Positions 13-55,556 are shown, numbered from the stretch's first letter. The stretch: 64,000 bases of DNA from an uncultured Gammaproteobacteria bacterium (GCA_964441335.1 CAYTUI010000001.1:961-64960); one strand, 5' to 3'. Numbers and translations: made by a program. The notes: generated by a model not told the origin, from the letters alone.

Positions 13-96
13 GGAGGAGTCGCATAGCGGCCATTGCAACGGCTTGGAAAGCCGTGATCCGAAAGGGTCCCGCGGGTTCGAGTCCCGCCTCCTCCG
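13..96 (+). tRNA. tRNA-Ser (anticodon GGA), type II with long variable arm; CCA not encoded
   Basis: Cloverleaf read directly: acceptor GGAGGAG/CTCCTCC, anticodon stem ACGGC/GCCGT with loop TTGGAAA, long variable arm, T-arm GCGGG-TTCGAGT-CCCGC. Confidence 0.8.
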
Positions 97-219
97 CTTT
101 GGCAAAATTCATACCATTCGGTATTGAATTTTGACAACATGAGTGTGGGACTCGAAGGGCACGAGAGCGCGCAATGCCCAGGCCCGAATCGGAGTGAGGG
201 GAGTCCCGCCTCCTCCGCC

Positions 220-759
220 ATGACAATTTTTTATCGGCATGACCCGAGTACCTATAATAATAAAACAATTATGGCTTTTCCTAAGACAACCGAAGTTAGT
301 GAGGAGTATAAAGCAAGAATCAATTGGTTAGTACAGCCCACATTGAATAATGTAAAATTTCAACAATTACAAAACAAGCACTTGTTTAAGTTTATATTAT
401 ACTGGATGATATTTGATTCATATTTGACTGAAATTTCTCAATGTAGAGCGGATGAAGAAAAGCTAAAATATTTCTTTAAAGAAGATAGCGATTTTAAAAA
501 ATACATCGCAGATAAAAAAATTTCTGCAAAATCGCTAAAAGAACTTTCTCCCGTACAAGACATGCGTCCAAATTCAAACAGAAGCATTCTCCTAGAAGAC
601 GAAAATAATTTAGAGCAAATAATTAGATTTTTGTATCAAATTAGATGCAATCTCTTCCATGGCGCAAAGGATTTAAAAAAAGCCAGAGAGAATGACTTAG
701 TATATGAAGGCGCCAAGTACTTAGAATTATCAGTGGGAGGCTGGATAATAGGACAATAA
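220..759 (+). CDS. Hypothetical AT-rich protein with an Rx4HG (RCNLFHG) HEPN-like motif. ORF is open from 124; start set at the first ATG after the tRNA-Ser 3' echo copy
   Basis: ORF track 124..759; C-terminal motif IRCNLFHGAK fits the HEPN Rx4-6H signature. No other recognisable domain. Start codon uncertain (ATG 140, 220 or 271). Confidence 0.4.
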   Translation: MTIFYRHDPSTYNNKTIMAFPKTTEVSEEYKARINWLVQPTLNNVKFQQLQNKHLFKFILYWMIFDSYLTEISQCRADEEKLKYFFKEDSDFKKYIADKKISAKSLKELSPVQDMRPNSNRSILLEDENNLEQIIRFLYQIRCNLFHGAKDLKKARENDLVYEGAKYLELSVGGWIIGQ

Positions 760-5554: not shown

Positions 5555-5631
5555 CGCGGGGTAGAGCAGTCAGGCAGCTCGCCAGGCCCATAACCTGGAG
5601 GTCGCCGGTTCAAATCCGGCCCCCGCTACCA
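5555..5631 (+). tRNA. tRNA-Met (anticodon CAT), initiator-like (1:72 mismatch C.U, GG/CC in anticodon stem), CCA encoded
   Basis: Cloverleaf read directly: CGCGGGG-TA-GAGC..GCTC, anticodon loop CCCATAA, T-arm GCCGG-TTCAAAT-CCGGC, 3' CCCCGCTACCA. Confidence 0.8.
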
Positions 5632-5720
5632 CGCCATTCGCGAATGGCGTGGGCTACCCACATCGTTCCCGAACGACATGGGCTACCCATCACGCCATTC
5701 ACGAATGGCGTGAGTCCCCC
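5632..5720 (+). repeat. REP-like hairpin array directly abutting the tRNA-Met 3' end
   Basis: Perfect palindrome ACGCCATTCGCGAATGGCGT (centre TCGCGA), then two GGGCTACCCA-flanked hairpin units (GTGGG-CTA-CCCAC) and a second palindrome CACGCCATTCACGAATGGCGTG. Units contain CTAC and echo the tRNA GCTACCA end. Confidence 0.6.
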
Positions 5721-5811
5721 ACTTTATTATGGTGTCCACAATTTTACGCGCAGCTCGAGAACGATATAGTTTATTAAATAATTATCACAATAAACAGGGA
5801 AACCTGTTTTT

Positions 5812-6078
5812 ATGTTTTATTTTTATATTATACAAAGTCAAAAAGACAAAAATTGGTTCTATAAGGGTCAAACCGGCGATTTGCGAAATAGAATGCGGCG
5901 CCATCATAGTGGGATGGTTAAATCAACCGCTAAATATTTGCCAGTTAGATTGGTTTATTATGAGGCTTATATAACTAGGAGAGCCGCTAAACAAAGAGAA
6001 TGGAGTGTAAAATATCATGGATCGGTTTCTGTCCCGTTACTTAAAAGAATAAAGAGAAGCCTTGAAGATAAGGACTAG
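5812..6078 (+). CDS. GIY-YIG nuclease superfamily protein (UPF0213/YhbQ-like), 88 aa
   Basis: FYFYIIQSQKDKNWFYKGQTGDLRNRMRRH matches the GIY-x10-YIG..R..H core; small stand-alone gene between two tRNA-Met genes. Confidence 0.7.
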   Translation: MFYFYIIQSQKDKNWFYKGQTGDLRNRMRRHHSGMVKSTAKYLPVRLVYYEAYITRRAAKQREWSVKYHGSVSVPLLKRIKRSLEDKD

Positions 6079-6120: not shown

Positions 6121-6197
6121 GGCGGGGTAGCTCAGTTGGTTAGAGCGCAGGACTCATAAGCCTGAGGTCGTGGGTTCGATTCCCACCCCCGCTACCA
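6121..6197 (+). tRNA. tRNA-Met/Ile2-type (anticodon CAT), elongator-like, CCA encoded
   Basis: GGCGGGG-TA-GCTC AGTTGGTTA GAGC, anticodon loop CTCATAA, T-arm GTGGG-TTCGATT-CCCAC, 3' CCCCGCTACCA. Confidence 0.8.
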
Positions 6198-6310
6198 CGT
6201 CGCTCGCGAGCGACGTGGGCTACCCACATCGTTCCCGAGCGACGTGGGCTACCCACATCGTTCCCGAGCGACGTGGGCTACCCACATCATTGCGAATGGC
6301 GTGAGCCACC
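6198..6310 (+). repeat. REP-like tandem array: palindrome CACGTCGCTCGCGAGCGACGTG plus 2.5 copies of 29-nt unit GGCTACCCACATCGTTCCCGAGCGACGTG
   Basis: Direct tandem repeats seen in sequence, no spacers (so not CRISPR). Each junction forms hairpin GTGGG-CTA-CCCAC containing CTAC. Confidence 0.65.
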
Positions 6311-6391
6311 CATAATGATTATAAATTAAATAAAGTATAACAGATGCCCGTAAGGGCTGTTTTTTTATTTCTGAACATGTATACTTGGCTA

Positions 6392-12348: not shown

Positions 12349-12435
12349 GCCGCGGTGGCGGAACTGGTAGACGCGTAGGTCTCAAAAACCTATAGGAGTT
12401 CTCCTGTGAGAGTTCGAGTCTCTCCCGCGGCACCA
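12349..12435 (+). tRNA. tRNA-Leu (anticodon CAA), type II, CCA encoded
   Basis: GCCGCGG-TG-GCG..CGC, anticodon stem TAGGT/ACCTA with loop CTCAAAA, long variable arm, T-arm GAGAG-TTCGAGT-CTCTC, 3' CCGCGGCACCA. Confidence 0.8.
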
Positions 12436-12499
12436 AATGGAAGTAATATACACAGGTTCGCCTGCCCGCCGTAGCTTTAGCGTAGGCGGGACCCCGACC

Positions 12500-12650
12500 A
12501 GCGGCACCATTTAGTTAGTAGCTAGTAGTTAGTAGTCAGTAGCTTGCAGCCAGTAGCTTATGGAGTAGAGCTCGTAGTCCTTAAGTTCGTCAGTTCTTAA
12601 GTTCATCGGTTCATAGGTTATTAAGCATTAAGACTTAATACTTAATTATT
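12500..12650. repeat. Composite GTAG-rich (AGTTAGTAGCTAGTAG...) then GTTCTTAAGTTC-rich low-complexity tract
   Basis: Seen directly; same architecture as 8160-8460. Confidence 0.7.
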
Positions 12651-25290: not shown

Positions 25291-25307
25291 GGAAGGAGGT
25301 GTATAAT

Positions 25308-25442: not shown

Positions 25443-25443
25443 T

Positions 25444-26878: not shown

Positions 26879-26886
26879 TTATAAAA

Positions 26887-30875: not shown

Positions 30876-31060
30876 TTGCTGGCTGGTTGGCAGACTGCTT
30901 GGGATGTTAAGCCGGGCTTGTGGGAGGGTCACGTCAGTGACCCTCCCACACCTAATTTTTTAGAAACTTGTTCCCAACAATCGTTGGAGACAAATTTCTA
31001 ACCTTGATTTTTTTGAGGTTATGCACCTTTCCAAGTCAACAACAAACAAGGAGGTAGCCG

Positions 31061-32449: not shown

Positions 32450-32459
32450 TCGTTGAAAG

Positions 32460-32491
32460 CCGCAGGGACGAGCAGCAGCTCGTCCCTGCGG
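32460..32491 (+). terminator. Hairpin terminator CCGCAGGGACGAGC-AGC-AGCTCGTCCCTGCGG
   Basis: 14-bp perfect stem; followed by AT-rich spacer with a second palindrome CCTTGTTTCAAACAAGG. Confidence 0.55.
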
Positions 32492-32600
32492 ACCCAATTT
32501 TGAAATAAAGAATTGCCAGTTTTATAAGTTGTCAGTTCCTTGTTTCAAACAAGGCCAAGTTCTTTGTAAATCTAAGAGATCAAAACCAAGGAGGAAAAAC

Positions 32601-33188
32601 GTGGAACGTACGGTGATTCATAGCGGTTTTTTGCAGCTGGAAGTTGTGGCAACACCACAGGGCCAGAGGGAGCTGGTGCGTACCACTGATTCTCTTTGCC
32701 TGTTGATTTTCGATCAGCTACGCAATCGGCTGATCTTAGTTCGACAGCCGCGGCCTTCACAGATGTCTGAACTCAATCCCGATAGTCCCCTGGCCAATCG
32801 CGAGGGGCTGATCACCGAGTGCTGCGCCGGCCGTTTCGACGGTCGGTATTCTCCGCTGGAGTTGGCGGTCAAGGAAGCCGAGGAGGAAACTGGTATTCAG
32901 GTCAATCCGGAGAATGTCGAGCTGCTGAACGGCGGGCGGCCCATGGCTGTGTCCGCCGGGGTCATCACGGAGTTATCCTATCTGGCGTACGTGAGGATCA
33001 CTTCAGATACCTCCGGTCTCGACCAGAAGTTGCACGGTCGGGCAGATGAGGGTGAGGAGATTCGTCTGGTCAGTCTGGACGCGGATCCTCGTTATCTGCA
33101 GGTGTACTTGGGCGGAGCTTGTCAGGACATTCGTGTCTTCACTCTGCTGCAGTATCATCTCAACAAGATGGAATGTCAGGTGTCCTGA
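32601..33188 (+). CDS. NUDIX hydrolase, ADP-ribose pyrophosphatase-like (start GTG at 32601 after AAGGAGG)
   Basis: Nudix box AGRFDGRYSPLELAVKEAEEETGI; strong SD 7 nt upstream of GTG. ORF track lists 32529..33188. Confidence 0.7.
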   Translation: MERTVIHSGFLQLEVVATPQGQRELVRTTDSLCLLIFDQLRNRLILVRQPRPSQMSELNPDSPLANREGLITECCAGRFDGRYSPLELAVKEAEEETGIQVNPENVELLNGGRPMAVSAGVITELSYLAYVRITSDTSGLDQKLHGRADEGEEIRLVSLDADPRYLQVYLGGACQDIRVFTLLQYHLNKMECQVS

Positions 33189-33212
33189 CAGTTTCCAGGA
33201 GAGGAGTTTTCA

Positions 33213-34838: not shown

Positions 34839-34970
34839 AGCTGCTACAAGCCGGTGGTCACCAGCAGGTGACCACCGGCCCTTACTTCAGCCTTGTCATA
34901 AAGAAAATGAAAGGGTTGAAGAGAGGCTAGTTCATTCAATGTCTATTCTAAAACCAAGGAGGTGCTCTAA

Positions 34971-35927
34971 ATGAGTTCTGCTCAGCCGATCGCTCACGGT
35001 AGCGGTCAAATGGGGGCGCAGTCTATCTCCATTCAGGTATCCACGCGGGAGCGTTGCAACGCCGGTTGTCGTTTTTGCATTTCGCGAACAACGCCGGGAG
35101 TGGAAACACCGGGCAATCCTCATGAAGTTAAGTTCTGCGATGAGCCGCGTCTGCAGGTCGGGTTGAACTATGCCCGGCAGTTGGGTGCGACGCATGCTAT
35201 CCTGACATCACGAGCTGATCCTTCGCAGGAGGACCCAAGGTATCTGCACCGACTGATCAGTACCAGTCGTCAGTTCTTGCCGCTAGTGGACATGCATACC
35301 AATGGTTTTCTTTGGCTGCCTGGTAAGCCGCAAGCCGATGATCTGTCTATACTGGTGGTTTCGGGTCTGACCATGCTTACTCTGTCGATCGCTTCTTTCG
35401 ATCAAAATCAGAATAGAGAGCTGATGATGATCCGCGAAAGCGGTGCCGGTTTGATCCGTCGGGCTCGGGATTTGGGTCTGCTGGTCCGCTGCTCTTTGGT
35501 TGTCAATTCCCAGGGAGTCAACGATTACCAGGGGGTTATCAACTACATCAAACAGGCCGGCAACCTGGGAGCCCACATGGTGGTCGTTAGAGAAGTCTGG
35601 CGACCGGAAGTGTATGGCGATTTCCAGCCCGAAGTGCTGGACTGGAACAACTGCAACTGGGTGGATATCGGTCCGATCCAGAGTCAGTTTATCCAGGCCG
35701 CCGGCCAGAGGGACAACCCTTACGGCTTGCAGCTTCGTGACCCCTTGCCCTGGGGCACACCGGTTATGGTGATGGGCGGAGTGTTCGACGACCCCAATCA
35801 TGGGGTCAATATCACTTTCGCTCGTTGCGAGGAGGGTACCAGGGGCTCGACCATTAAGAGCATCGTCCATAAGCCCGATGGTCACGGTTATCGCAACTGG
35901 GATCACAACGGCGATATCCTCTACTGA
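34971..35927 (+). CDS. Radical SAM domain protein (CX3CX2C)
   Basis: RERCNAGCRFCISRT cluster-binding motif near N-terminus; no further family assignment possible by eye. Confidence 0.6.
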   Translation: MSSAQPIAHGSGQMGAQSISIQVSTRERCNAGCRFCISRTTPGVETPGNPHEVKFCDEPRLQVGLNYARQLGATHAILTSRADPSQEDPRYLHRLISTSRQFLPLVDMHTNGFLWLPGKPQADDLSILVVSGLTMLTLSIASFDQNQNRELMMIRESGAGLIRRARDLGLLVRCSLVVNSQGVNDYQGVINYIKQAGNLGAHMVVVREVWRPEVYGDFQPEVLDWNNCNWVDIGPIQSQFIQAAGQRDNPYGLQLRDPLPWGTPVMVMGGVFDDPNHGVNITFARCEEGTRGSTIKSIVHKPDGHGYRNWDHNGDILY

Positions 35928-36057
35928 TTAGGTGGAGGACGGGGCATCTGCGTCGGCGCAGATGCCCCCTTTCCCGAGGTCTTATCATCTATAGATAAGG
36001 TCTTAGGAGAGTTCAGTTCTTTAACACGCAACCATCTAAAACCAAGGAGGAGAGGGA

Positions 36058-38082
36058 ATGCTAAAGTCCGAACAGTTTATGGACGTTCGACAGCATGGGT
36101 TTATCCGTTTGGCCGTGATTGTACCCAGAGTTCATTTGGGCAATGTACCGGCAAACGTGGCTGAACATCTGATGAAGATCAGCGAGGTTCGCAGACAAGG
36201 CGCCAGTTATATAGTGGCTCCTGAGTTGAGTCTGACCGGCTACTCCAACGGCGATCTGTTTCATTCACAGGCACTGCTGGAAGCGGCCGTGATCGGTTTG
36301 GGCGAGTTGCTGGAGGCAACGGCAGCCTGGCCGCAGATCATCTCGGTCGGCCTGCCCCTGCTGGTGGACGGCGCGGTCTACAACTGTGCTGTGACCATTC
36401 ATCGGGGCGTTATTCTGGCGGTGGTGCCTAAGGCCTATCCGCCGGAGTATCGCGAGTTTTATGAGCAGCGGCACTTCGCCTCGGCCTATGAGGCTCAGTC
36501 CACTGTTATCAACCTGCTGGGTCAGACAGCTGCTTTCGGAACCGACATTTTGTTGGTTTCGGATCACAACCCGCGTCTGACGATTCACACCGAGGTCTGC
36601 GAAGATCTTTGGGTGCCGATTCCGCCCAGCACTGAGGCGGCTCTAGCTGGCGCAACGGTGCTGGCCAACCTGTCGGCTTCCAATATCACCATCGGTAAGA
36701 GCGGATATCGGGAGCTGTTGGTGGCCGGATCGTCAGCCAAGAATCTGGCTGTGCAGATGTACAGCGCGGCAGGTTTCGGTGAGTCCACGACTGACCTGTC
36801 CTGGGACGGGGAAGCCCTGATCGCCGAGCGTGGCGAAATTCTGGTCAGGGGTCAGCGTTTCAGCCTTGACGGCGGCACTTCAGTTGTGGCCGACGTGGAT
36901 CTGGAGCTGTTGGCACTGGAACGCGCCAGGCAGAATTCCTTCAGGTCAAACGCCAGTCAGCATCCCCGTAAGTTCCGGCGCATCCTGATTACTGGACAGT
37001 TATCTGATGCTGTTCAGGACGGGCTGGAGCAGGTGCATCACAAGTTGCACCGCTTCGTGGATCCGCATCCCTTCGTGCCTAGCGACCAGTCTCAGCGCGA
37101 TGAGCGCTGTCGGGAAACTTTCCTGATTCAGGCAACGGCTTTGGCCAGACGGCTGGAACAGCTGCCACAGGATCGTCGGCACGTGGTGGTGGGTATTTCC
37201 GGTGGACAGGATTCAACGCACGCGCTCAACGTGGCGGTCCATGCTATGGATCTCATGAAGATGCCGCGTCGCAACATCCTGGCGGTAACCATGCCGGGGT
37301 TCGGCACAACCGACCTGACAAAGAACAATGCCGTGGCATTGGTCAAAGCGGTCGGCGCTGAACTGCTGGTGATTCCCGTTAGTGAACTGTCGCTCCTGAT
37401 GTTCCAAAACATCGGGCATAATCCGGATGAGCACGACCTGACCTACGAGAACGTTCAGGCTTGGGCCCGGATGTATACGGAGCTGTCATTAGCTGCCGAG
37501 AAAGGAGGGTTGGTACTGGGGACTGGTGACTTGTCGGAGCTGATGCTTGGCTGGTGTACTTACCTGGGTGATCACGCCAGTCATTATGGTATCAACGCCG
37601 GTGTGCCCAAGACTCTTATTTCCTATCTGATCGCCTGGACCGCAGAGCAGGTCTATGGAGAGAAGGAACCGGAAGTTAGGGGTATTCTGCAGAGCATTCT
37701 GGTAACTCCGATATCACCGGAGCTCTTACCACCGGCGGCTGACGGTTCTATAGCGCAGAGAACGGAAGACAAGGTTGGACCATATGAGCTGCATGATTTC
37801 TTCGGTTATTACTTCGTTCGCTTTGGTTTCAGCCCCAAGCGCATCGTGCGTCTGGCATTGGCTGCCTTTGGCGACAAGTACTCCATCGGAGAGATCAAGT
37901 CTTGGTTCAGGCTCTTCCTGACTCGTTTCTTCCGGAATCAGTTCAAGCGATCTTGTTTGCCCGATGGTCCCAAGGTAGGTCTGACGTGCATCTCGCCTCG
38001 CGGTGACTGGCGGATGCCCTCGGATGCTGACCCGACTGTTTGGCTTCAGGATCTGGAGCTGGTACCGGACAACCTCAACTAG
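36058..38082 (+). CDS. nadE: Glutamine-dependent NAD+ synthetase NadE (nitrilase-like glutaminase domain plus NAD synthetase domain)
   Basis: N-terminal CN-hydrolase fold (IVAPELSLTGY, ...CEDLW); C-terminal PP-loop VVGISGGQDST and long 674-aa architecture like actinobacterial NadE. Confidence 0.9.
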   Translation: MLKSEQFMDVRQHGFIRLAVIVPRVHLGNVPANVAEHLMKISEVRRQGASYIVAPELSLTGYSNGDLFHSQALLEAAVIGLGELLEATAAWPQIISVGLPLLVDGAVYNCAVTIHRGVILAVVPKAYPPEYREFYEQRHFASAYEAQSTVINLLGQTAAFGTDILLVSDHNPRLTIHTEVCEDLWVPIPPSTEAALAGATVLANLSASNITIGKSGYRELLVAGSSAKNLAVQMYSAAGFGESTTDLSWDGEALIAERGEILVRGQRFSLDGGTSVVADVDLELLALERARQNSFRSNASQHPRKFRRILITGQLSDAVQDGLEQVHHKLHRFVDPHPFVPSDQSQRDERCRETFLIQATALARRLEQLPQDRRHVVVGISGGQDSTHALNVAVHAMDLMKMPRRNILAVTMPGFGTTDLTKNNAVALVKAVGAELLVIPVSELSLLMFQNIGHNPDEHDLTYENVQAWARMYTELSLAAEKGGLVLGTGDLSELMLGWCTYLGDHASHYGINAGVPKTLISYLIAWTAEQVYGEKEPEVRGILQSILVTPISPELLPPAADGSIAQRTEDKVGPYELHDFFGYYFVRFGFSPKRIVRLALAAFGDKYSIGEIKSWFRLFLTRFFRNQFKRSCLPDGPKVGLTCISPRGDWRMPSDADPTVWLQDLELVPDNLN

Positions 38083-38088
38083 AGGTTT

Positions 38089-38131
38089 GACCCCGCCCCA
38101 ACACTTTTGTGTCATGGGCGGGGTCTTTTTT
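38089..38131 (+). terminator. Rho-independent terminator closing the GC-rich NAD island
   Basis: GACCCCGCCC-loop-GGGCGGGGTC followed by TTTTTT. Confidence 0.7.
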
Positions 38132-39843: not shown

Positions 39844-40132
39844 AGATAATTGTTGAGATTTGTTTATCACAAAAACAGCTGATAAAAGCTGTTTTGTGTA
39901 ATTTATAGCGTTTTAGTTTCTAGCAGGGTGTCAAATATTGACTTTTTGCCATTTGTCCATTAACATCTATCCTTGTGATATCAACTATGACTTTTGCTTG
40001 CTGTAGCACTATAGATATCGATGGTTTCAAAAAATCACTTGGTATTGGAAACAGCCCGCTCTTCGGAATTAAGTATTTAGGAAATTGTGATTTGTTTAGT
40101 ATTTTGGTTTTGGGATTTGAAATTTATTAAAG

Positions 40133-40208
40133 CGGGGTGTGGCGCAGTTGGTAGCGCGCATGCATGGGGTGCATGAGGCCGTGGGTTCAAGTCCCGCCAC
40201 CCCGACCA
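40133..40208 (+). tRNA. tRNA-Pro (anticodon GGG), CCA encoded
   Basis: CGGGGTG-TG-GCGC AGTTGGTA GCGC, anticodon stem CATGC/GCATG with loop ATGGGGT, T-arm GTGGG-TTCAAGT-CCCGC, 3' CACCCCGACCA. Confidence 0.8.
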
Positions 40209-40369
40209 AGTGATTCTGAAAAAATTCACAGGAGATGTAGTTGCGGGTTTCGCCCAAAGGGCGACCCGGTCGAATGACCGGGCAAGTCCTGTCACCCCGA
40301 CCATTCGACTTTGTTCAGCTTAGCTTGACCAAGAAAATTATATAACAATATTAAATCTCGTTTGATGGA

Positions 40370-40444
40370 TCCGCGGTAGCTCAGTGGTAGAGCAGCTGAC
40401 TGTTAATCAGCGGGTCGTCGGTTCGAACCCGACCCGCGGAGCCA
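40370..40444 (+). tRNA. tRNA-Asn (anticodon GUU), CCA encoded
   Basis: TCCGCGG-TA-GCTC AGTGGTA GAGC, anticodon loop CTGTTAA, T-arm GTCGG-TTCGAAC-CCGAC, 3' CCGCGGAGCCA. Confidence 0.85.
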
Positions 40445-40500
40445 TCAGGTGAGATTTTTTTGTACCACATGTTTCTGATATACAATTTGACTTTTCCCCC

Positions 40501-41202
40501 ATGAAGTGTAAATATAACACTAGAAATATGACTCGACCTAAAAGTATTGACGTTAAAAAATTAAAGTTTGCTATTATTGCTGTTGATGTGGCTGTCTTTC
40601 GGATTAACAACGGGATTTTAGAAGTGTTGCTGGGGGAGGTTATGAATCCTCACTTTAGAAACAGACCTGGTCTGATCGGTGGAGTTATCGAGACAACCGA
40701 AACAGCCGAGCAGGCAGTTGTTAATCATTTAAAAAATAAGACGGGCGTCAAAGTTGATTTTATTGAACAACTTCAGACATTTAGTAGAATTGACAGGGAT
40801 CCCCGCGGTCGCGTTTTGTCGGTTGCCTATTTGGCTATTATCAATAAGATAAGCCCTGTCGGAGGAAATATTAGAACCGTTTGGGTTCCAATTAACCAGG
40901 CCAAAAATTTAGCCTATGACCACGATGAAATATTGCGGGTAGCTGGTGAAAGACTGCGGGCTAAATTTGGTTATACTAATATTGCCCAGCATTTTTTACC
41001 GTTGAATTTTACTTTAACCGAACTGCAACAGGTTTATCAGATTGTTATGAATCAAACTATAGACAAGAGGAATTTTAGACGTAAAGTATTGAATGTCGGT
41101 TTAGTAGCACCGACCGGCAGAACAACGACTAAAGGCACCAAGAAACCTGCGCAACTGTTCAGATTCGCATCGTTGAAGCCAAAAATCATTGAACTGTTTT
41201 AA
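40501..41202 (+). CDS. Second NrtR-like regulator (Nudix-like domain plus C-terminal wHTH), paralog of 27440..28114
   Basis: Same architecture and alignable motifs (GG.IE..E.....V...L..KTGV, AYDH..I...A.ERLR.K..YTNI, FTLTELQ.VY..I....DKRNFR.KVL..GL). Confidence 0.7.
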   Translation: MKCKYNTRNMTRPKSIDVKKLKFAIIAVDVAVFRINNGILEVLLGEVMNPHFRNRPGLIGGVIETTETAEQAVVNHLKNKTGVKVDFIEQLQTFSRIDRDPRGRVLSVAYLAIINKISPVGGNIRTVWVPINQAKNLAYDHDEILRVAGERLRAKFGYTNIAQHFLPLNFTLTELQQVYQIVMNQTIDKRNFRRKVLNVGLVAPTGRTTTKGTKKPAQLFRFASLKPKIIELF

Positions 41203-41418
41203 TTTATCAGGGCGATATTTTTTTGCTTGTGAATAAGTGTCTACTTGACACTTATTTTGATTGTTGCTAAGGTAGAGGCAGAGGAGAAAGTGGACAACTA
41301 TTTAAGGGATTGACAAAATTCTATAAATATTGTAGGTTCACCAACTCTGTTTCTTTGACAATTTATAAGATATTTATAGTGAAATGGCCAAGAAACCTTG
41401 AAAGGAGGTGGACGACCA

Positions 41419-42245
41419 TGATTGTGAAACACGGAGACCGGCAATTCGAAGCCGGTCGTCTGGTGGCCGATAACGGCCGTTATCGCCAGTATCTCTGCGT
41501 GGAGATTGGCGCTGACAAGGAAAAGGAGTGTTTGTTGCAGATCGCCACCGCTACCAATGGTAACGGTCAACTCGATCGGGCAGCCTACTTCCTTCAGGAA
41601 CTTGAGCGTCGAGCTCGCGAAGTGGAGAAGGAGTTCAAGAAGGTCAGAACCGATCCCAAGGTGATGCTCAATTACGGGCTGGGCTTTCCCAAGCTGGTTG
41701 ACAGCTTCGTCTGTCAGGAGCAGGGCGGCCGCCGTATCAACATCCTGGCTTTCAGACGCGTTGATCAGGTTGGTCAGATGATCCCTTTGAGTAGTGTGAT
41801 CAAAAGCAACCTGATGATTGACCGTCGTACTAGCGTCTGGATTCTGGGAAAGCTTCTCAAGCTGTTGACTTTTAGTCACAGTGAAGGGATTGCTGTCGGA
41901 CGCCTGGACGCTGACAACATTCTGCTTCAGCCGAATCAGCACTACGTGGTGTTGTTTGACTGGTCGGAAGGAAGTCAGTATCCGGAAAAAGTGCCTGCGG
42001 AAATCGCCTGTCAGGAGATCACTCAAGCTGCCATATCAGTTATGGCCGCCCTGTACTATGATCCGGAGTCTGGGAAATTCCCTGACGATCCGGATGATCC
42101 TGACGATCGTTATGTCAAGCACCTGATGACTCTGGCTAAAGGTCAGGAGCATCGGGCGGATCAGGCTCACCAGGAATTCTACAAACTGGTTGACACTATC
42201 TGGGAAAGGAGATTCTACCCCTTTACGACTCGACCGAAGTTCTGA
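41419..42245 (+). CDS. APH/ChoK-like (aminoglycoside-phosphotransferase-fold) small-molecule kinase-like protein, GC-rich
   Basis: Catalytic-loop-like GRLDADNILL and metal-binding VVLFDWSEG (IDWE-type) motifs; start ATG 41419 after AAAGGAGG. ORF track lists 41310..42245. Confidence 0.5.
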
Positions 42246-42288
42246 AGCTACGCTACGTTAGACCAACGAAAGAAGGAGGACGAGTACT

Positions 42289-43452
42289 ATGGGACGCGAT
42301 ACCTTGTCTCGTGATGCCTTTACCAGAGTCAGCTCGTTGGCGACGAGGGGTGGCAGGAAAGCCACTCACGATGCTGAAGAGCAAGTCAGACAAGGCAAGG
42401 GTATTGATCCCCTTGTTGATCCGAAAGGGCCGTCTCATCTCGGTCCGATTCGTAGGTCGCTGCCGCGTTTTGAGAAGCAGAAGTCGCTTTGGCGATTGGT
42501 GATGAACATGCCGATGGCCGAGGAGACCCTGCTGGATACGACCGGTTCTATGCAACAAAACGTGGAGCTGGCGTTCGCGGCGTTGCCGAAGTCGTTCGGG
42601 ATGTACACCGAAGGATCTTGTCCGGTACTGGGTAGATACGATGTCCAGATCGCCACCGGAATCTTCAACGACGTCGACGATCTTGATGCAAATCCGTATG
42701 CCCAGGTCCTGTGTCGTTCGCAGTTTGAAATGGGCGAGAAGATCGCCTTGCAGATGACTCGGATGATCCCGGGACGCAACGGCTGCGGCAACTTCAAGGA
42801 GGATTCACAGTTTGGGCTGTTCGGAGCCGCCTATCTGACGGATGCCAGGATCACGAAGTACGGCCTCAGGACCTATCATTTCACGGTGTCGGACGAGCCG
42901 ACCGTGGAAACGATCGAACTGGGCTGGCTGAAGAAGATCTTCGGCGACGACGTGCTGGAGCGAACGGCCGAGAACGGCTGGGACTTCACCGCGCGTACTC
43001 TGCCGGACACGGCGCAGGCAGTTCGTGACCTGCAGACGCGGGCTCACGCCTTCTTTCTGCAAGTTCCGGGTTGGCATGATGAACGCAGGGTCACGAATCA
43101 GTGGACCGAGCTTTACGGCCCGGCTCATTTCGTGATGCTGCCCGGCGGGACTGAGTATGTGCACGCTGTCAAGGGCTGCATCATCGGTCTGACCGAGGGT
43201 GTTATCAGTCTCTCGTCGGCCAAGGACTTCCTGCGCGAGCATGGGGTTCCGGCTGACGCGGCTGCCAAAATCGTCCGCGCAGTCGCGCATATTCCTCTGG
43301 CAGCGCAGACCCTGGCTCCGAACTTCGACAAGCTGCCGAAGGTTGGGGATCTCTTCAAGGAAAAGACCGACCTCTGGCCGGTTGATCCCCAAGAGGTGCC
43401 GGAAGCGACTGTTGAAGACAAGGACAAGGGCGAGGAGACCGAGTGGCTGTAG
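42289..43452 (+). CDS. von Willebrand factor A (vWA) domain protein, TerY-like
   Basis: MIDAS motif LLDTTGSM after a ~70-aa N-terminal extension; strong SD GAAGGAGGA. Confidence 0.55.
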   Translation: MGRDTLSRDAFTRVSSLATRGGRKATHDAEEQVRQGKGIDPLVDPKGPSHLGPIRRSLPRFEKQKSLWRLVMNMPMAEETLLDTTGSMQQNVELAFAALPKSFGMYTEGSCPVLGRYDVQIATGIFNDVDDLDANPYAQVLCRSQFEMGEKIALQMTRMIPGRNGCGNFKEDSQFGLFGAAYLTDARITKYGLRTYHFTVSDEPTVETIELGWLKKIFGDDVLERTAENGWDFTARTLPDTAQAVRDLQTRAHAFFLQVPGWHDERRVTNQWTELYGPAHFVMLPGGTEYVHAVKGCIIGLTEGVISLSSAKDFLREHGVPADAAAKIVRAVAHIPLAAQTLAPNFDKLPKVGDLFKEKTDLWPVDPQEVPEATVEDKDKGEETEWL

Positions 43453-43498
43453 CTCCTTAACCTGACAACCGTAAATCCTAAACCAAAGAGAGGTGACT

Positions 43499-44884
43499 AT
43501 GACCAAGAAGGTCTACCTGGTCACCGATCTCGGTCCTGGAGACGGTGGTAAAGGTGGAGTGGTACACAAAGTCTCCAAGCTGATGCGTGCCCACACCATC
43601 ATCAAGGTTGGGGGTGCGCAAGGAAGCCATGGAGTCAGAACCTCAACAGGCGAACACTTCGCTTTCAGCCAATGGGGTTGCGGCACATTCGAGGGGGTGA
43701 GGTCTTACCTCTCCCCTCGGATGGTCGTTTCCCCGGAAGGGCTACTGAACGAAGCTGACGTTCTCCGCTACCGCTGGGGTATTTATAACCCCTTTGATCT
43801 ACTGATAGTGGACCAAAGGGCGTTGTGTGCCACGGCGTATCACGGGATTGCTTCGCGTCTAAAAGAAATGGCGCGCAAGGATAATCCCCGTGGCACGATC
43901 GGTACCGGAGTTGGCGAGGCTTACCGCGCTGCACAGCGGTTCCCTGATCTGGCGATTTATGCCCGTGATCTAAAACGGGCTGATCTGCGAGATCGGTTGG
44001 CCGTTGTTAGGCAACAACAGCAACAGGAATTGGCGCCGATCATAGCGGCGGAGTTTCTGCTCTATGATCAAGACGCCGTCGCCAAGGAAGTTAGTTGTCT
44101 GTTTGATGACGACTTCCTGGATTTCGTCGTTAGGCGGTTCCAAGAAGTATCCCAAAGAGCAACCATTGTTGACCAGGACTATCTGGGACGGGAAATCCTG
44201 TCCCGAGACGGTGTGGTCGTCGTGGAAAGCTCGCATGGGGTGCTGACTGATCACTACGCCGGGTTCCATCCGCACACCAGCGCCATTCGGACATTGCCTT
44301 GTTTCACCGAGGTGATGCTCCGGGAGGCTGGTTACAACGGACCAATCATCAACCTCGGGGTAACCCGAGCCTATCAGATACGCCACGGCGCAGGTCCGCT
44401 GCCAACTGCTGATCCAGCGTTGTCAGAGAATCTGTTGCCCGGCAGTCACAAGCAGGACAATCGTTACCAGGGCCAGGTTCGCGTTGGACCTCTGGACTTG
44501 GTGCTACTGCGCTACGCTCTGGCGGCTTGCGGCGGTCCAACTAGTTTTGATGGTTTGGCCATTACCTGGTTTGACCAGATTCAAGCTAATGGAGTTTGGC
44601 GTTTCTGTGACCGTTACCAAGGCAGTGACGACCCGACCTACTTCACGCCGTCCGGTGAGTTGCGGGTGCGGTTCGGAGCTGATGAAGAGCAGTTGTCCTT
44701 TCAAGAAAATCTCGGGCGTCAGCTTGGCAGTTGTCGTCCGGAGATTACTACCCAAGATATCCCGACGAGCATGGGGCGTGATGATCTGTATGATCTTTGC
44801 GCCAATACTCTGAAGGAGAAACTGGGTGTCCCTGTTCGCATGGTTTCGTTCGGTCCGACCGAGCGGGACAAAGTCTGCAAGTAA
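43499..44884 (+). CDS. Divergent adenylosuccinate synthetase (PurA)-like enzyme
   Basis: Alignable with PurA: P-loop TDLGPGDGGKGGVV (vs GDEGKGK), GGAQGSHGV (vs QGGHNAGHT), PRGTIGTGVGEAY (vs IGTTGRGIGPAY), VVESSHGVLTDHYAGFHPHTSA (vs [22 protein letters not shown]), TRAYQIRHGAGPLP (vs KAYSTRVGAGPFP). Confidence 0.65.
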   Translation: MTKKVYLVTDLGPGDGGKGGVVHKVSKLMRAHTIIKVGGAQGSHGVRTSTGEHFAFSQWGCGTFEGVRSYLSPRMVVSPEGLLNEADVLRYRWGIYNPFDLLIVDQRALCATAYHGIASRLKEMARKDNPRGTIGTGVGEAYRAAQRFPDLAIYARDLKRADLRDRLAVVRQQQQQELAPIIAAEFLLYDQDAVAKEVSCLFDDDFLDFVVRRFQEVSQRATIVDQDYLGREILSRDGVVVVESSHGVLTDHYAGFHPHTSAIRTLPCFTEVMLREAGYNGPIINLGVTRAYQIRHGAGPLPTADPALSENLLPGSHKQDNRYQGQVRVGPLDLVLLRYALAACGGPTSFDGLAITWFDQIQANGVWRFCDRYQGSDDPTYFTPSGELRVRFGADEEQLSFQENLGRQLGSCRPEITTQDIPTSMGRDDLYDLCANTLKEKLGVPVRMVSFGPTERDKVCK

Positions 44885-44913
44885 ATGCGTGAACGCGAAA
44901 GGAGATAGTGCAG

Positions 44914-46083
44914 ATGAGTGAAGATCGGGAAGGAACGCGGCAAATTTCCGCGGGTGATGCTATCGCTTTGTTGCTCACCGACCACGGCTTGGAAGCCGCG
45001 GTTATCGACAAGATCAAGACCGATCTGGGCGCCGCTACCGTTGAGGATTTGTCGGCGCTGACCGAAGCCGACCTCGTCGGTATCGGCATGAAGAAGCTGC
45101 CGGCTCGCAAGCTGGTGGCGGATCTGAAGCCGGTGGAGGTTGCTCCGACACCTGCGGCCAGTCCGGTCAGTACCATGTCCTTCGATTCCATCCTGCCCAA
45201 CGTCCCTACGGACTCTTCCTGGCTGGAAGCGCTTCGGACGGGCGGTGTTCTCAAGGTCGATCAGTCCACCGTCATCGGCGCCATTCGGGCGGCCTTGGCT
45301 CACAAGGCCAGGCTGTATGACATCCCGGACGGGCTGGTGACCATGTTGGAACGGTTCGCCGAGGAGAACGAGGAACAGGTGGACGTCGAGTTCTTCAAGT
45401 TGAAGAAGCAGCTGACCCGCCGAAACTACGCCGAGATCTTCTCGGCCATCGAAGGGCTGGACGGCAGCTACGTGACCGAGGGTCGGAAGAAGCAGCTGTT
45501 CGGTCGCATCGACGAGCATCTCTGGCCGTCGATCGAAACCTTCTACGGCCAGTTGAAGGGCTGGCAGGAGGCTTGGCTCCAGGGCGGGGCCAATCCGATG
45601 ATCATGATGAGCGCGATCATGGCGGCTTCGGGCGGCGGCGCGGGTGTCATGCCTCCCGGCGTGATGCAACCGCCGGATACCGGGGGGCTCCGTGATCATG
45701 CCGACGCCGTGGCCGACGCCATCAACAAGTGCTTCGCTGGCACTGGCGTGCAGATCGCGTCGGCTTTGGCCTACGATGCCACCAAGATCCGGGAGACGTT
45801 GGAGAACCCGCGTCTGCCGGCACTGGTCGGAGCTGCCAACCGCGATCAGATGCTCCGGCAACTGGGAGTGGCCGTTTCGGCCACCTACCCGCGGCTGGAG
45901 ACCAATCTGACCCGCTTCGTCCTGTCGACGTTGCAGGTCAAGGACCAGGCGGCCGGCACCGAGGAGCTGCAGTACTTCAGCTCCCTGTTCATGCTCGGGT
46001 CGCAGATCCCTTGGGATCAGCTTGGTAACAAGCGTCCCAGTGGCAAGCTCTCGGGCATCGGCGTCACGAGGCGCGACCTCTAG
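44914..46083 (+). CDS. Hypothetical protein, last gene of the GC-rich 4-gene operon
   Basis: ATG 44914 with SD AAAGGAG; 389 aa, Ala/Gly-rich, no recognisable motif; followed by terminator. Confidence 0.5.
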   Translation: MSEDREGTRQISAGDAIALLLTDHGLEAAVIDKIKTDLGAATVEDLSALTEADLVGIGMKKLPARKLVADLKPVEVAPTPAASPVSTMSFDSILPNVPTDSSWLEALRTGGVLKVDQSTVIGAIRAALAHKARLYDIPDGLVTMLERFAEENEEQVDVEFFKLKKQLTRRNYAEIFSAIEGLDGSYVTEGRKKQLFGRIDEHLWPSIETFYGQLKGWQEAWLQGGANPMIMMSAIMAASGGGAGVMPPGVMQPPDTGGLRDHADAVADAINKCFAGTGVQIASALAYDATKIRETLENPRLPALVGAANRDQMLRQLGVAVSATYPRLETNLTRFVLSTLQVKDQAAGTEELQYFSSLFMLGSQIPWDQLGNKRPSGKLSGIGVTRRDL

Positions 46084-46111
46084 ATCCAACGCGGTTCTGG
46101 AGTAACCTTGG

Positions 46112-52559: not shown

Positions 52560-52680
52560 TTGAATTATGGATTGAAAGAGGTAGTAGGAAGTAGGTAGTA
52601 GGAAGTAGGTAGTAGCTAGTAGGTAGTAGGTTATCGCCCAGTTGGTGGTGGGCGAAGGTTGTGGGCGGGGGTTCCGATTA
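52560..52680. repeat. GTAG/CTAC-rich low-complexity tract plus terminator hairpin (CGCCCA..TGGGCG on minus strand) downstream of topA
   Basis: AGGTAGTAGGAAGTAGGTAGTAG... repeats seen directly. Confidence 0.65.
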
Positions 52681-54965: not shown

Positions 54966-55556
54966 TCAATCAGCATCGTTAGAATTATTTCGGTCTTTTA
55001 GCCAATTAATCGGGTTATTTTTAATGTACATACGAATTTTATATAGAGATTCTTCATTCCGTATAATATGATCGTGGAATCGCGATTGCCAGAATTGTCG
55101 TCCGAGGGTGCCGCGGTGCTGGTTAATGCGGCGGGCCGAAAATGTTTTAAAACCGCGAATTATTTCTGATACCGAATAGCGCCCGGTTGGGTAATCGTTG
55201 AAATGACGTTGATTTAATGCAAAACCCGTGGAGGCGGGTTTGAAACCCGCCTCTACAGGACGCCGGTTGCAATTATACCGGGCGTTAATGCGGATTATTC
55301 CATGAACGTGGTTCGGCATTATGACAAATGCGTCCAATCGGCAATCGCAATAATGTTTTGTTAAATCACGCCAGCATTTTTTCACGATTTGTCCCAATGG
55401 TGATAGTTGCATTTTACCGTTAACAATTTGTCCTAAATCGCAGATTCTGTTTTTGACGCAAATGGTTATAAAATAATATCCTTGATTTGAATAATCCCAA
55501 TATGGTAAACGTGTTGATTCGATTCTATATCTGCCTAGGTATTTTGAATATTTCAT
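54966..55556 (-). mobile_element. IS200/IS605-type Y1 (HuH) tyrosine transposase, RAYT/YafM-like, carrying an in-frame GTAG+hairpin (REP-like) insertion
   Basis: HuH motif MPNHVHGII and C-terminal FWQSRFHDHIIRNEESLYKIRMYIKNNP (YafM-like catalytic region). Perfect palindrome GAGGCGGGTTT-G-AAACCCGCCTC + CTAC at 55231-55256 lies inside the reading frame. Gene sits between topA and dprA. Confidence 0.75.

What the first reader, a model, noticed from the sequence alone, without database searches (positions are those of the whole stretch)
40133..40310. tRNA-Pro followed 75 bp downstream by a 20-nt echo of its 3' end (18/20 identical, CCA included) inside a hairpin
AAGTCCTGTCACCCCGACCA (40284-40303) matches the tRNA 3' end AAGTCCCGCCACCCCGACCA with 2 mismatches. 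It is embedded in the inverted repeat GTCGAATG...CATTCGAC. Together with Ser, Leu and both Met genes, all five tRNAs with readable downstream sequence show an echo. That argues for a systematic process (serial mini-element integration or excision, or a tRNA-3'-mimic RNA) rather than coincidence. tRNA-Asn is the only gene without a clear echo.
Basis: seen in the sequence. Interest (0 to 1): 0.55.

Follow-up and report, generated by a model that had tools for sequence, protein, structure and literature searches.

The report
Duplicated tRNA tail: probable insertion scar
A near-exact 20-base copy of the end of a proline tRNA gene lies 75 bases behind that gene in a groundwater Patescibacteria genome; it is real and non-random, is most likely a scar of DNA that once inserted into the tRNA gene rather than a tRNA mimic, and it led to an apparently undescribed pattern in which hairpins, copies of tRNA tails and small nuclease genes pile up exactly at tRNA 3' ends in these bacteria.

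Summary
tRNA-Pro(GGG) is at 40133-40208. Its last 20 nt recur at 40284-40303 (18/20, CCA included; 19/21 from 40283), inside the inverted repeat 40269-40276 / 40302-40309. Four other assemblies of the same organism contain it, and chance is excluded.

The copy starts sharply in the T-loop and stops exactly at CCA. The 74-75-nt spacer shows no similarity to a tRNA body, a GIY-YIG gene or any other fetched sequence. No acceptor/T minihelix forms.

These boundaries match the direct repeats left by DNA inserted into tRNA genes. A metagenomic tRNA-Pro locus (L111) shows the full-size version, with an integrase fragment between the repeats. L003 has a GIY-YIG gene in that position.

The two tRNA-Met "echoes" are a different thing: 29-nt tandem units made of a conserved palindrome plus the tRNA's last 4-5 nt and CCA. 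The same module follows tRNA-Trp or tRNA-Ser in six other Patescibacteria genomes, usually just upstream of a small GIY-YIG nuclease gene.

Verdict: a systematic DNA-level process at tRNA 3' ends is supported. The tRNA-mimic reading is not. The mechanism is inferred, not shown. I rate it a new variant of a known kind, of moderate interest.

The parts
40133..40208 (+). tRNA-Pro(GGG), CCA encoded; T-stem GTGGG/CCCGC
   Evidence: ARAGORN; Rfam RF00005 63.7 bits
40209..40282 (+). 74-nt spacer, no ORF. Contains hairpin CGGG..TCGCCC-AAA-GGGCGA-CCCG (about 40244-40268) and the perfect 7-bp hairpin CCCGGTC-GAAT-GACCGGG (40265-40282).
   Evidence: Folds. No similarity to the tRNA body (z=-1.1), to GIY-YIG proteins or to any fetched locus.
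40283..40303 (+). Echo: copy of tRNA-Pro positions 56-76 (T-loop C56 to CCA), 19/21 to the resident gene. It is 21/21 to the commoner CCTGT allele of tRNA-Pro seen in other organisms.
40269..40309 (+). Inverted repeat GTCGAATG/CATTCGAC plus inner CGGG/CCCG pairs enclosing most of the echo, followed by TTTGTT. Possible weak terminator of the tRNA-Pro transcript.
   Evidence: -19.1 kcal/mol, z=-2.5. Not called by the terminator scan because the loop is 13 nt.
40325..40352 (+). Promoter-like TTGACC-16-AATATT ahead of tRNA-Asn
   Evidence: consensus match only
40370..40444 (+). tRNA-Asn(GTT), no echo
13..96 (+). tRNA-Ser(GGA); the gene does not encode CCA (..CCGCTTT)
201..220 (+). Echo of the tRNA-Ser 3' end (GAGTCCCGCCTCCTCCG + CCA), 20/20 from T-loop position 57. 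It pairs with GAGTGTGGGACTC (141-153) in the spacer.
12349..12435 (+). tRNA-Leu(CAA)
12465..12490 (+). Hairpin CCCGCC-GTAGCTTTAGCGTA-GGCGGG. It belongs to a hairpin family with a conserved loop and covarying stems found in tRNA trailers of other Patescibacteria (L003, L233, L236 x2).
12491..12509 (+). Two tRNA tails in tandem: ACCCCGACCA (last 10 nt of tRNA-Pro) then GCGGCACCA (last 9 nt of tRNA-Leu)
   Evidence: (this 10-mer occurs only 3 times in the window: tRNA-Pro, its echo, and here)
5555..5631 (+). tRNA-Met (initiator type, C1/A72)
5629..5721 (+). Three tandem units of about 29 nt: a palindrome that starts with the tRNA's CCA (CCACGCCATTCG/CGAATGGCGTGG), then GCTACCCA; the last tail is GTCCCCCA.
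5812..6078 (+). Small GIY-YIG nuclease gene (88 aa, MFYFYIIQSQKD...), immediately preceded by a terminator-like hairpin plus T-run (about 5793-5811)
   Evidence: Pfam PF01541; homologues; every homologue with DNA except L234 lies next to a tRNA
6121..6197 (+). tRNA-Met (elongator)
6195..6312 (+). Four tandem 29-nt units (CCACGTCGCTCG/CGAGCGACGTGG + GCTACCCA; last tail GCCACCCA). This trailer is homologous to the Met1 module but has no nuclease gene.
   Evidence: (nhmmer E=1.7e-15)
54966..55556 (-). RAYT-like (REP-associated) Y1/HUH transposase gene between dprA and topA. It is a candidate handler of palindromic repeats; any link to the echoes is untested.
   Evidence: Pfam Y1_Tnp 1.7e-10; NCBIfam NF047646 1.3e-18, 67 bits, below the 80-bit cut-off; HVH motif visible in the translation

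Best explanation
The echo is a DNA-level duplicate of the 3' part (T-loop position 56 to CCA) of a tRNA-Pro gene. It is the distal direct repeat, attR-like, left when foreign DNA inserted into the 3' part of the gene while bringing or regenerating an intact 3' end. Only a 74-nt hairpin-rich remnant of the insert survives, or the insert was a miniature element from the start. The tRNA upstream is the working gene. The echo has no tRNA-like function of its own, although its hairpin may now serve incidentally as the end of the tRNA-Pro transcript.

In this lineage, tRNA 3' ends are the preferred landing place for small cassettes: GIY-YIG nuclease genes, conserved palindromes and other hairpin modules. 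That preference explains why Ser, Leu and both Met genes also carry tail copies.

Shown: the repeat and its boundaries, its non-randomness, the analogous loci with an integrase fragment or a GIY-YIG gene between repeats, and the recurrent nuclease/palindrome/tail modules. Inferred: that an insertion, and not another process, created the Pro echo; which enzyme did it; and that the spacer is a remnant.
For: 1. Boundaries match a recombination junction. Identity starts abruptly in the T-loop, the spacer has no residual similarity to the tRNA body (z=-1.1, against z=5.3 for the L196 pseudo-tRNA control), and identity ends exactly at CCA with no flank similarity.
2. The same boundaries occur in L111, where a tyrosine-recombinase fragment and cargo lie between tRNA-Pro and a 35-nt echo 1.67 kb downstream. 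In L003 a GIY-YIG ORF lies between tRNA-Ser and its echo.
3. A graded series of spacer lengths exists: 1.67 kb (L111), 319 nt (L003), 164 (L112), 140 (L012), 105 (window Ser), 75 (window Pro) and 19 (L162).
4. The two mismatches turn the rare resident T-stem allele CCCGC (3 of 124 loci) into CCTGT, the second commonest allele (24 of 124). The echo is 21/21 to real tRNA-Pro genes of other organisms, as expected if one of the two copies came from elsewhere.
5. A tRNA-Pro tail sits in the tRNA-Leu trailer, and an Asn-like tail sits in the L236 tRNA-Trp trailer. Tails therefore travel with hairpin modules.
6. Of 17 non-redundant small GIY-YIG ORFs in held DNA, 15 lie within 500 nt of a tRNA on the same strand. 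In L191 one sits next to a 5' tRNA-Pro fragment that ends in the T-loop (GGTT|).
7. Tail copies occur only downstream and on the same strand.
Against: - No integrase, reverse transcriptase or GIY-YIG gene, and no coding remnant of one, is in or next to the Pro spacer. No integrase or reverse transcriptase was found among about 50 window ORFs scanned.
- The spacer has no homologue in any fetched sequence, so no 'occupied versus empty site' pair was found. Synteny-based relatives lacked the tRNA.
- Spacers of 19-165 nt are too short to be autonomous or to circularise, so a deletion history must be assumed.
- The repeats are kept nearly perfect while the interiors are unrelated, which could also reflect selection.
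- The echo's CCTGT would pair poorly with the resident 5' T-stem, so it is not simply the displaced original end of this gene.
- The trailers fold better than shuffles (z about -2.8), and echoes are usually preceded by a small stable hairpin with a GAA(K) loop, which hints at constraint.
Confidence: 0.5

Rival explanations
1. The hairpin plus tRNA tail is a functional part of the tRNA 3' trailer at the RNA level. It could be a terminator or processing signal, or a decoy that presents or sequesters a copy of the tRNA's 3' tail to an enzyme that reads tRNA ends, such as RNase P, a 3' exonuclease, the CCA-adding enzyme or a toxin. On this view it is kept matched to its tRNA by selection.
For: - Trailers fold better than shuffles (Pro z=-2.8 and -2.9, Ser z=-2.8, Met arrays z=-8.3 and -6.8).
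- The palindrome after the CCA shows compensatory changes: 98.6% of cells paired, and 3 of 10 pairs with changes on both sides. Its sequence is identical in five genomes whose GIY-YIG proteins are only 54-84% identical.
- For tRNA-Ser, a 12-bp helix followed by the same free tail CUCCGCCA appears both in the window (long echo) and in L219 (short echo).
- The Met2 trailer has the module without any nuclease gene.
- The Pro hairpin is followed by TTTGTT.
Against: - No acceptor/T minihelix forms, there is no tRNA-model hit, and the CCA is partly paired.
- Echo-versus-native competition for the tRNA 5' strand is no stronger than with shuffled spacers (p=0.44, 0.14, 0.39).
- Tails sometimes belong to a different tRNA (Pro tail behind Leu, Asn-like tail behind Trp), and distal tails decay (GTCCCCCA, GCCACCCA).
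- Most tRNAs in the same genomes, and about 96% of unselected tRNA-Pro loci, lack any echo.
- The Pro spacer is not conserved anywhere.
Confidence: 0.25
2. The echo is copied from RNA. A 3' fragment of a mature tRNA (T-loop to CCA, like a tRF-3) was reverse-transcribed or used as filler during repair. Equivalently, the complement on the minus strand is a primer-binding site for a tRNA-primed retroelement.
For: - Both boundaries coincide with RNA landmarks: the T-loop cleavage zone and the mature CCA end.
- The Ser echo carries CCA although the Ser gene does not encode it.
- Tails of other tRNAs occur in trans.
- The Pro echo matches another tRNA-Pro allele or isoacceptor.
Against: - No reverse transcriptase was found among about 50 window ORFs scanned.
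- In L003 the repeat runs about 35 nt past the tRNA end. I read L182 the same way by eye. That is DNA-level duplication.
- Integrative elements give the same boundaries (L111).
- The CCA in the Ser echo is equally explained if the echo is the original gene end.
Confidence: 0.08
3. The spacer plus echo is a decayed second tRNA-Pro gene from a tandem pair. The CCA-to-CCA distance is 95 nt, about one tRNA plus an 18-nt spacer, as in the real tandem tRNA-Pro pairs of L163.
For: - The distance fits.
- L196 shows a decaying tandem tRNA-Pro copy.
- The echo allele is a real tRNA-Pro allele.
Against: - There is no residual similarity between the spacer and any tRNA-Pro body (z=-1.1, against z=5.3 for L196).
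- The Rfam tRNA model finds nothing at E<=10.
- Uniform decay would not leave 19/21 identity next to random sequence.
- Ser, L012 and L112 show the same sharp edge.
Confidence: 0.07
4. The match is a coincidence of GC-rich sequence.
For: None beyond the modest length of the match.
Against: - Window-internal null: 6 of 8616 positions reach 18/20.
- 26 downstream, 0 upstream and 2 opposite-strand 8-mer echoes, against 0.5 expected.
- The echo is reproduced in independent assemblies.
Confidence: 0.01

Closest known systems
attL/attR direct repeats of elements integrated into tRNA genes by tyrosine recombinases (P4-type islands; the T-loop and anticodon-loop sublocation classes described by Williams 2002, cited from my own knowledge)
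   Same: A same-strand direct repeat of 17-35 nt made of the tRNA 3' part. It begins inside the T-arm, ends at the tRNA 3' end, and leaves the tRNA gene intact. One copy can carry a foreign allele. L111 from the same scan is a textbook case with an integrase fragment.
   Different: Only 75 bp lie between the repeats. There is no integrase, no cargo and no recognisable arm-type sites, and several tRNAs in one 64-kb stretch are affected.
Free-standing GIY-YIG homing endonuclease genes in tRNA gene clusters (phage T4 SegB, PMC2330249)
   Same: Small GIY-YIG genes wedged directly against tRNA genes, in several copies per genome (L219, L061, L210, L236), with partial tRNA fragments at their borders (L191, L003).
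   Different: Cleavage and homing are untested here. The proteins are about 85 aa with no obvious DNA-binding extension. They come with conserved palindromes and copies of tRNA tails, which are not described for Seg endonucleases. None is present at the Pro echo.
REP/BIME palindromic repeats and their RAYT (Y1/HUH) transposases
   Same: GC-rich imperfect palindromes lie in tandem or alternating clusters after gene ends. The window encodes a RAYT-like protein. On the opposite strand the Met units read GTAGCC + palindrome, like the REP GTAG motif.
   Different: Only four TCGCGA-centred palindromes occur in 64 kb. In other genomes the motif next to the palindrome is the local tRNA's tail (CTCCGCCA, CCTGCCA), not a fixed GTAG. 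Placement is exactly at the CCA.
tRNA-like structures, acceptor/T minihelices and tRNA pseudogenes
   Same: They contain the T-stem 3' strand, the acceptor 3' strand and CCA of a tRNA.
   Different: There is no complementary 5' acceptor strand, the T-loop is truncated, the tRNA model gives no score, and no similarity to a tRNA body remains.
Retroviral/LTR-retrotransposon primer-binding sites and Neurospora retroplasmid tRNA/CCA insertions (from my own knowledge)
   Same: An 18-20-nt stretch corresponding to a tRNA 3' end including CCA.
   Different: No reverse transcriptase or retroelement is nearby. The echo is on the same strand as the tRNA and directly behind its own gene.

Membership tests
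tRNA-integrated element scar (attL/attR) | Same-strand direct repeat consisting of the 3' part of the tRNA gene, downstream of an intact tRNA | tested here: met
   19/21 repeat at 40283-40303 behind an intact tRNA-Pro
tRNA-integrated element scar (attL/attR) | Repeat starts within the T-arm or anticodon arm and ends at or near the tRNA 3' end, with unrelated flanks | tested here: met
   Starts at T-loop C56. There is no body similarity and no flank similarity. L111 has the same boundaries.
tRNA-integrated element scar (attL/attR) | Integrase gene or remnant, or cargo, between the repeats | tested here: not met
   The 74-nt spacer has no ORF. No integrase was found among the window ORFs scanned. 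This feature is met only in the comparison locus L111.
tRNA-integrated element scar (attL/attR) | Empty-site allele in relatives | tested here: inconclusive
   No orthologous locus was recovered. The four other assemblies are the same strain.
GIY-YIG homing-endonuclease cassette | GIY-YIG ORF within or next to the duplicated segment | tested here: not met
   No ORF and no coding remnant at Pro, Ser or Leu (hmmsearch E>1). The feature is met at Met1 (5812-6078) and in L003, L061, L191, L210, L219, L229, L230, L233, L236 and L251.
GIY-YIG homing-endonuclease cassette | Site-specific cleavage of the cassette-free allele, and homing | not testable with these tools
   Needs enzyme assays or population data.
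tRNA mimic / acceptor-T minihelix | 5' strand pairing with the acceptor 3' strand, intact T stem-loop, free NCCA | tested here: not met
   No CGGGGTG precedes the echo, the T-loop lacks TT, and the MFE pairs the CA of the CCA. No RF00005 hit at E<=10.
tRNA pseudogene (tandem duplicate) | Residual similarity over the tRNA body | tested here: not met
   z=-1.1 for Pro and -1.6 for Ser, against 5.3 for the L196 control.
REP/BIME with RAYT | RAYT gene in the genome | tested here: inconclusive
   ORF 54966-55556(-) matches NF047646 at 67 bits, below the 80-bit cut-off. An HUH-like HVH motif is present.
REP/BIME with RAYT | Many dispersed copies of one palindrome with a fixed GTAG-type motif | tested here: not met
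   Four TCGCGA-centred palindromes in 64 kb. The adjacent motif varies with the tRNA. The Pro hairpin is unrelated in sequence.
Riboswitch-like bistable precursor | Spacer biased toward sequestering the native 3' strand so that the echo closes the acceptor stem | tested here: not met
   ddG(echo minus native) is -1.5, -4.5 and -1.7 kcal/mol, within the shuffled-spacer distribution (p=0.44, 0.14, 0.39).

The most novel reading that the evidence does not exclude
Hairpin-plus-tRNA-tail modules might be a dedicated system of Patescibacteria rather than passive scars. On this reading, a structured element is placed exactly at the CCA of tRNA genes, always followed by a copy of that tRNA's own last nucleotides plus CCA. 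It would be maintained by selection, which the compensatory changes in the palindrome suggest, and serviced by a small GIY-YIG nuclease.

Two versions are possible. One is a new kind of mobile element that targets, or is templated by, tRNA 3' ends, with tails possibly copied from mature tRNA (the Ser echo's CCA is absent from the gene). The other is a device for tRNA 3'-end processing or protection in organisms with a reduced RNase set. The Pro, Ser and Leu echoes would then be members or derivatives of it.
Probability: 0.15. Interest if true: 0.8.

Novelty: new variant of a known kind. Interest (0 to 1): 0.5.

Why it matters
On its own, the Pro echo is a small scar. It does, however, mark tRNA 3' ends as recombination hot spots even in a roughly 1-Mb streamlined genome.

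The wider pattern it exposed includes:
- a conserved palindrome that starts with the tRNA's CCA;
- tandem copies of the tRNA tail;
- small GIY-YIG genes pressed against tRNAs in at least eight Patescibacteria genomes;
- further hairpin families confined to tRNA trailers.

I could not find this pattern described in four full-text searches of the paper library. If these are mobile cassettes, they are a compact new example of selfish DNA that uses tRNA genes as safe harbours. They would also be a practical source of tRNA-end-specific nucleases.

There is a practical point for genome annotation and island-finding tools as well. Short orphan tRNA 3' fragments in these genomes should not be read as tRNA genes or as boundaries of large islands.

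Tried and rejected
- Rfam. With gathering thresholds on the whole window, and with E<=10 on 40100-40500, only the real tRNAs are found.
- Decayed tandem tRNA. Rejected because the spacers show no body similarity.
- GIY-YIG coding remnant in the Pro, Ser, Leu, L012 and L112 spacers. Profile search of six-frame translations gave all E>1.
- Homology of the Pro, Ser and Leu trailers to the Met/GIY-YIG module. nhmmer found only the Leu hairpin family, and Met2 matching Met1. blastn of the spacers against all loci found nothing for Pro or Ser.
- Extension of the repeats into the flanks. My by-eye impressions for Ser, L012 and L162 were not significant; only L003 extends.
- Designed bistable precursor in which the echo replaces the native acceptor strand. 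The full-length fold does choose the echo, but no more often than with shuffled spacers.
- Orthologous loci through the upstream 406-aa protein. Relatives exist (Komeilibacteria-like), but synteny with tRNA-Pro is not kept.
- Phage attP search. The Met palindrome has no match in viral contigs. The 12 matches to the Pro 21-mer are unusual phage tRNA-Pro(TGG) genes that ARAGORN misses, not att sites.
- Literature. Four full-text searches found no description of tRNA-tail echoes or tRNA-linked GIY-YIG genes in Patescibacteria. The paper on tRNA group I introns (PMC13011429) concerns the anticodon loop only.
- A shared 'CGAAK..TGA' motif before the long echoes. I first read it as the 3' end of a dead ORF. 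It is better described as small stable hairpins with GAA(K) loops (GCGAAGC, CCGAATCGG, GGTCGAATGACC), and its meaning is unknown.

Full report
**Setting.** The window is chromosomal DNA of a Patescibacteria (CPR) bacterium. It carries dnaG-rpoD, parAB, topA, dprA, mfd and relA/spoT. Its RpoD is 63-67% identical to Falkowbacteria and Moraniibacteria MAGs. The protein upstream of tRNA-Pro has its named relatives in Komeilibacteria and the Parcubacteria group. Identical proteins occur on groundwater contigs of project PRJNA292723. ARAGORN and Rfam agree on six tRNAs, all on the + strand.

**The observation.**
- tRNA-Pro(GGG) ends at 40208 with ...TCAAGTCCCGCCACCCCGACCA.
- GTCGAATG (40269-40276) and CATTCGAC (40302-40309) flank it.
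- Four other assemblies from different samples contain it. L081 and L084 are 657/658 identical over the intergenic region, and L082 and L083 are 100% identical over the 336 nt they reach.

It is not chance. Inside the window, 6 of 8616 non-tRNA 20-mers recur at >=18/20 within 200 nt. The 26 include redundant strains and reduce to about 9 independent cases. In an unconditioned sample of about 120 metagenomic tRNA-Pro loci, the background best match is 8-12 of 17 and only about 4 loci have a true echo. The window, with Ser 20/20, Pro 18/20 and Leu 9/9, is strongly enriched.

**Anatomy of the Pro echo.**
- Identity begins abruptly at T-loop position 56. The 74-nt spacer has no similarity to a tRNA-Pro body (z=-1.1, against z=5.3 for the decaying tandem copy in L196).
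- Identity stops at CCA, and the flanks are unrelated.
- The spacer has no ORF, no GIY-YIG coding remnant, no Rfam hit and no homologue in about 2.4 Mb of related and metagenomic DNA.
- It folds into two GC hairpins plus a hairpin that encloses the echo (z about -2.5 to -2.9), followed by TTTGTT and a promoter-like site ahead of tRNA-Asn.
- It is not a minihelix. No 5' acceptor strand is present, the T-loop lacks TT, and the CA of the CCA is paired.
- When the tRNA and trailer are folded together, the echo rather than the native strand closes the acceptor stem. Shuffled spacers do the same equally often, so this is a trivial result of having two identical strands.

**The two mismatches.** They convert the resident T-stem CCCGC, a rare allele (3 of 124 loci), into CCTGT, the second most common allele (24 of 124). 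The echo is 21/21 to real tRNA-Pro genes elsewhere. One of the two copies therefore probably came from another tRNA-Pro gene.

**Comparison loci.** The same architecture, with sharp T-loop and CCA boundaries, occurs in four other places:
- tRNA-Ser in the window (echo 201-220, with CCA that the gene itself lacks);
- tRNA-Ser(GGA) of another Patescibacteria MAG, L012;
- tRNA-Pro of L112;
- tRNA-Pro of L162.

Two loci still show what can lie between such repeats.
- In L111, tRNA-Pro is followed by a tyrosine-recombinase fragment and cargo, then a 35-nt echo 1.67 kb downstream. This is a classical attL/attR pair.
- In L003, tRNA-Ser(CGA) is followed by a trailer hairpin, an 83-aa GIY-YIG ORF, then the echo. 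Here the repeat continues into the trailer.
- In L191, a GIY-YIG ORF lies between a 5' tRNA-Pro fragment that ends in the T-loop (..GGTT|) and a complete tRNA-Pro.

Spacer lengths form a series from 1.67 kb down to 19 nt. I therefore read the window's Pro echo as the distal repeat of an insertion into the tRNA's 3' part. Its interior has been almost entirely lost, or was tiny from the start. This is an inference; no empty-site allele was found.

**The Met 'echoes' are something else, and the more interesting part.**
- Behind both tRNA-Met genes lie 3.0 and 3.4 tandem 29-nt units. Each is a palindrome that begins with the preceding CCA (CCACGTCGCTCG/CGAGCGACGTGG) followed by GCTACCCA.
- The window's small GIY-YIG gene (5812-6078) follows the Met1 array, separated from it by a terminator-like hairpin.
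- Homologues of this protein led to six other genomes, L210, L219, L229, L230, L233 and L251. In each, the same palindrome directly follows the CCA of tRNA-Trp or tRNA-Ser and is followed by that tRNA's own tail: CCTGCCA for Trp, CTCCGCCA for Ser. After about 90 nt and a terminator-like hairpin comes the GIY-YIG gene. Several units sometimes occur in tandem.
- In a seventh genome, L236, the homologous gene also lies behind tRNA-Trp, but a different hairpin and an Asn-like tail (CGGAGCCA) follow the CCA.
- The palindrome is identical in five genomes although the proteins are only 54-84% identical. The variants change both arms together: 98.6% of cells are paired, and 3 of 10 pairs show changes on both sides.
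- The Met2 trailer is homologous to the Met1 module but lacks the gene.
- Of 17 non-redundant small GIY-YIG ORFs in the held DNA, 15 lie within 500 nt of a tRNA on the same strand. One subfamily sits upstream of tRNAs and another downstream.

**Other trailer features.**
- The tRNA-Leu trailer carries a hairpin with a conserved loop (AGCTTTAGCG) and covarying stems. The same hairpin is found in tRNA trailers of L003, L233 and L236.
- That hairpin is followed by the last 10 nt of tRNA-Pro and then the last 9 nt of tRNA-Leu. Tails evidently travel with hairpin modules.
- The window also encodes a RAYT-like Y1 transposase. Whether it, the GIY-YIG proteins or an integrase elsewhere in the genome creates these structures cannot be decided here.

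**What it is like, and what it is.** It works like, and most resembles, the att direct repeats of tRNA-integrated elements. It fails the membership test on the integrase and cargo criterion. It is not a tRNA, a tRNA pseudogene or a minihelix.

The functional-RNA rival keeps some weight for three reasons: the trailers are structured, the palindromes covary, and a 12-bp helix followed by the free tail CUCCGCCA recurs for tRNA-Ser in two different designs. An RNA-templated origin is not excluded, because the boundaries coincide with T-loop cleavage and the mature CCA end, and because the Ser echo carries CCA. It lacks a reverse transcriptase, though.

**Novelty and score.** The Pro echo itself is a new, extreme variant of a known kind of scar. 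The tRNA-tail/palindrome/GIY-YIG modules appear undescribed in the searchable literature and deserve a genome-wide survey. Overall interest is moderate (0.5). The mechanism is inferred rather than shown, and the piece actually flagged is probably inert.

Noticed in passing
window 30000-38100 and 41300-46100: Two islands of 55-59% GC in a roughly 40% GC genome. The first carries NAD salvage and synthesis genes: an NMNAT/NAD-kinase-like fusion, a NUDIX protein, NAPRTase, a radical-SAM-like protein and NAD synthase. The second carries unknown ORFs and an adenylosuccinate-synthetase-like gene. An NrtR-type regulator precedes each island (27440-28114 and 40501-41202). The first island has its own GC-rich hairpins after genes (30919, 32460, 34849, 35939). 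This looks like horizontal acquisition, and tRNA-Pro/tRNA-Asn sit between the two islands.
   Followed up: partly
window 54966-55556 (-): RAYT-like (REP-associated) Y1/HUH transposase gene between dprA and topA. NCBIfam NF047646 scores 67 bits, below the 80-bit cut-off, and an HVH motif is present.
   Followed up: partly
window 60052-60079 and 60102-60129: Two further perfect palindromes centred on CTCGCGAG, in the intergenic region upstream of mfd. They are not next to a tRNA and have the same core as the palindromes behind tRNA-Met.
   Followed up: no
window 5416-5527, 8157-8436, 12512-12612, 52579-52631; also L233 7325-7440: Intergenic tandem repeats of 7-8 nt units rich in stop codons (TAGTGAG, TAGAAGA, GTTCTTTA, TAGCTAG, AGGTAGT), often next to tRNA genes.
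   Followed up: no
window 12465-12490; L003 about 2651-2674; L233 about 7550-7577; L236 about 397-422 and 1034-1062: A hairpin family confined to tRNA trailers, with conserved loop G(A/T)AGCTTTAGCG(A/T)A and covarying stems (CCCGCC/GGCGGG, CCCTCC/GGAGGG, CCCTTC/GAAGGG, GTCCGCC/GGCGGAC). In L003 its 5' arm is the tRNA's own last 5 nt.
   Followed up: partly
L233 7749-7920: Directly after the CCA of tRNA-Thr(TGT) sits a MITE-like insert of about 170 nt bounded by 17-nt inverted repeats (GATTATCGCTAAACTCG ... CGAGTTTAGCGATAATC).
   Followed up: no
L182 (minus strand, behind tRNA-Pro 6614-6688): Three tandem 77-nt units. Each is the tRNA's T-arm 5' strand plus GGTTC, a 20-nt hairpin insert in the T-loop, the T-stem and acceptor 3' strands, and the trailer. 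The genome is 55% GC, so probably not CPR.
   Followed up: partly
L239-L250 (IMG/VR phage contigs rich in tRNAs and tmRNA): A conserved tRNA-Pro(TGG)-like gene with an odd D-arm and T-loop TGCAAGT lies behind tRNA-Gln and is not called by ARAGORN.
   Followed up: partly
L012 13382-13534 (-): A 51-aa C-terminal fragment of a GIY-YIG protein (E=4e-8), far from any tRNA. It is a decayed copy, showing that these genes do erode.
   Followed up: no
L234 7960-8226: The one homologous small GIY-YIG gene not next to a tRNA. It sits inside a pyrimidine-biosynthesis operon, overlapping its neighbours' stop and start codons.
   Followed up: no
window 46199-48127 (-): A 642-aa ORF with a Pol-beta-type nucleotidyltransferase domain (weak MntA-like match) at the edge of the second GC-rich island.
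   Followed up: no
window 14797-27279: A duplicated copper/heavy-metal cluster: two P-type ATPases, two HMA-DsbD_2 proteins (one also carries a cupredoxin domain), one separate cupredoxin ORF, a DsbA-like protein and a BlaI/BlaR-like pair. This is unusual ballast for a streamlined genome.
   Followed up: no
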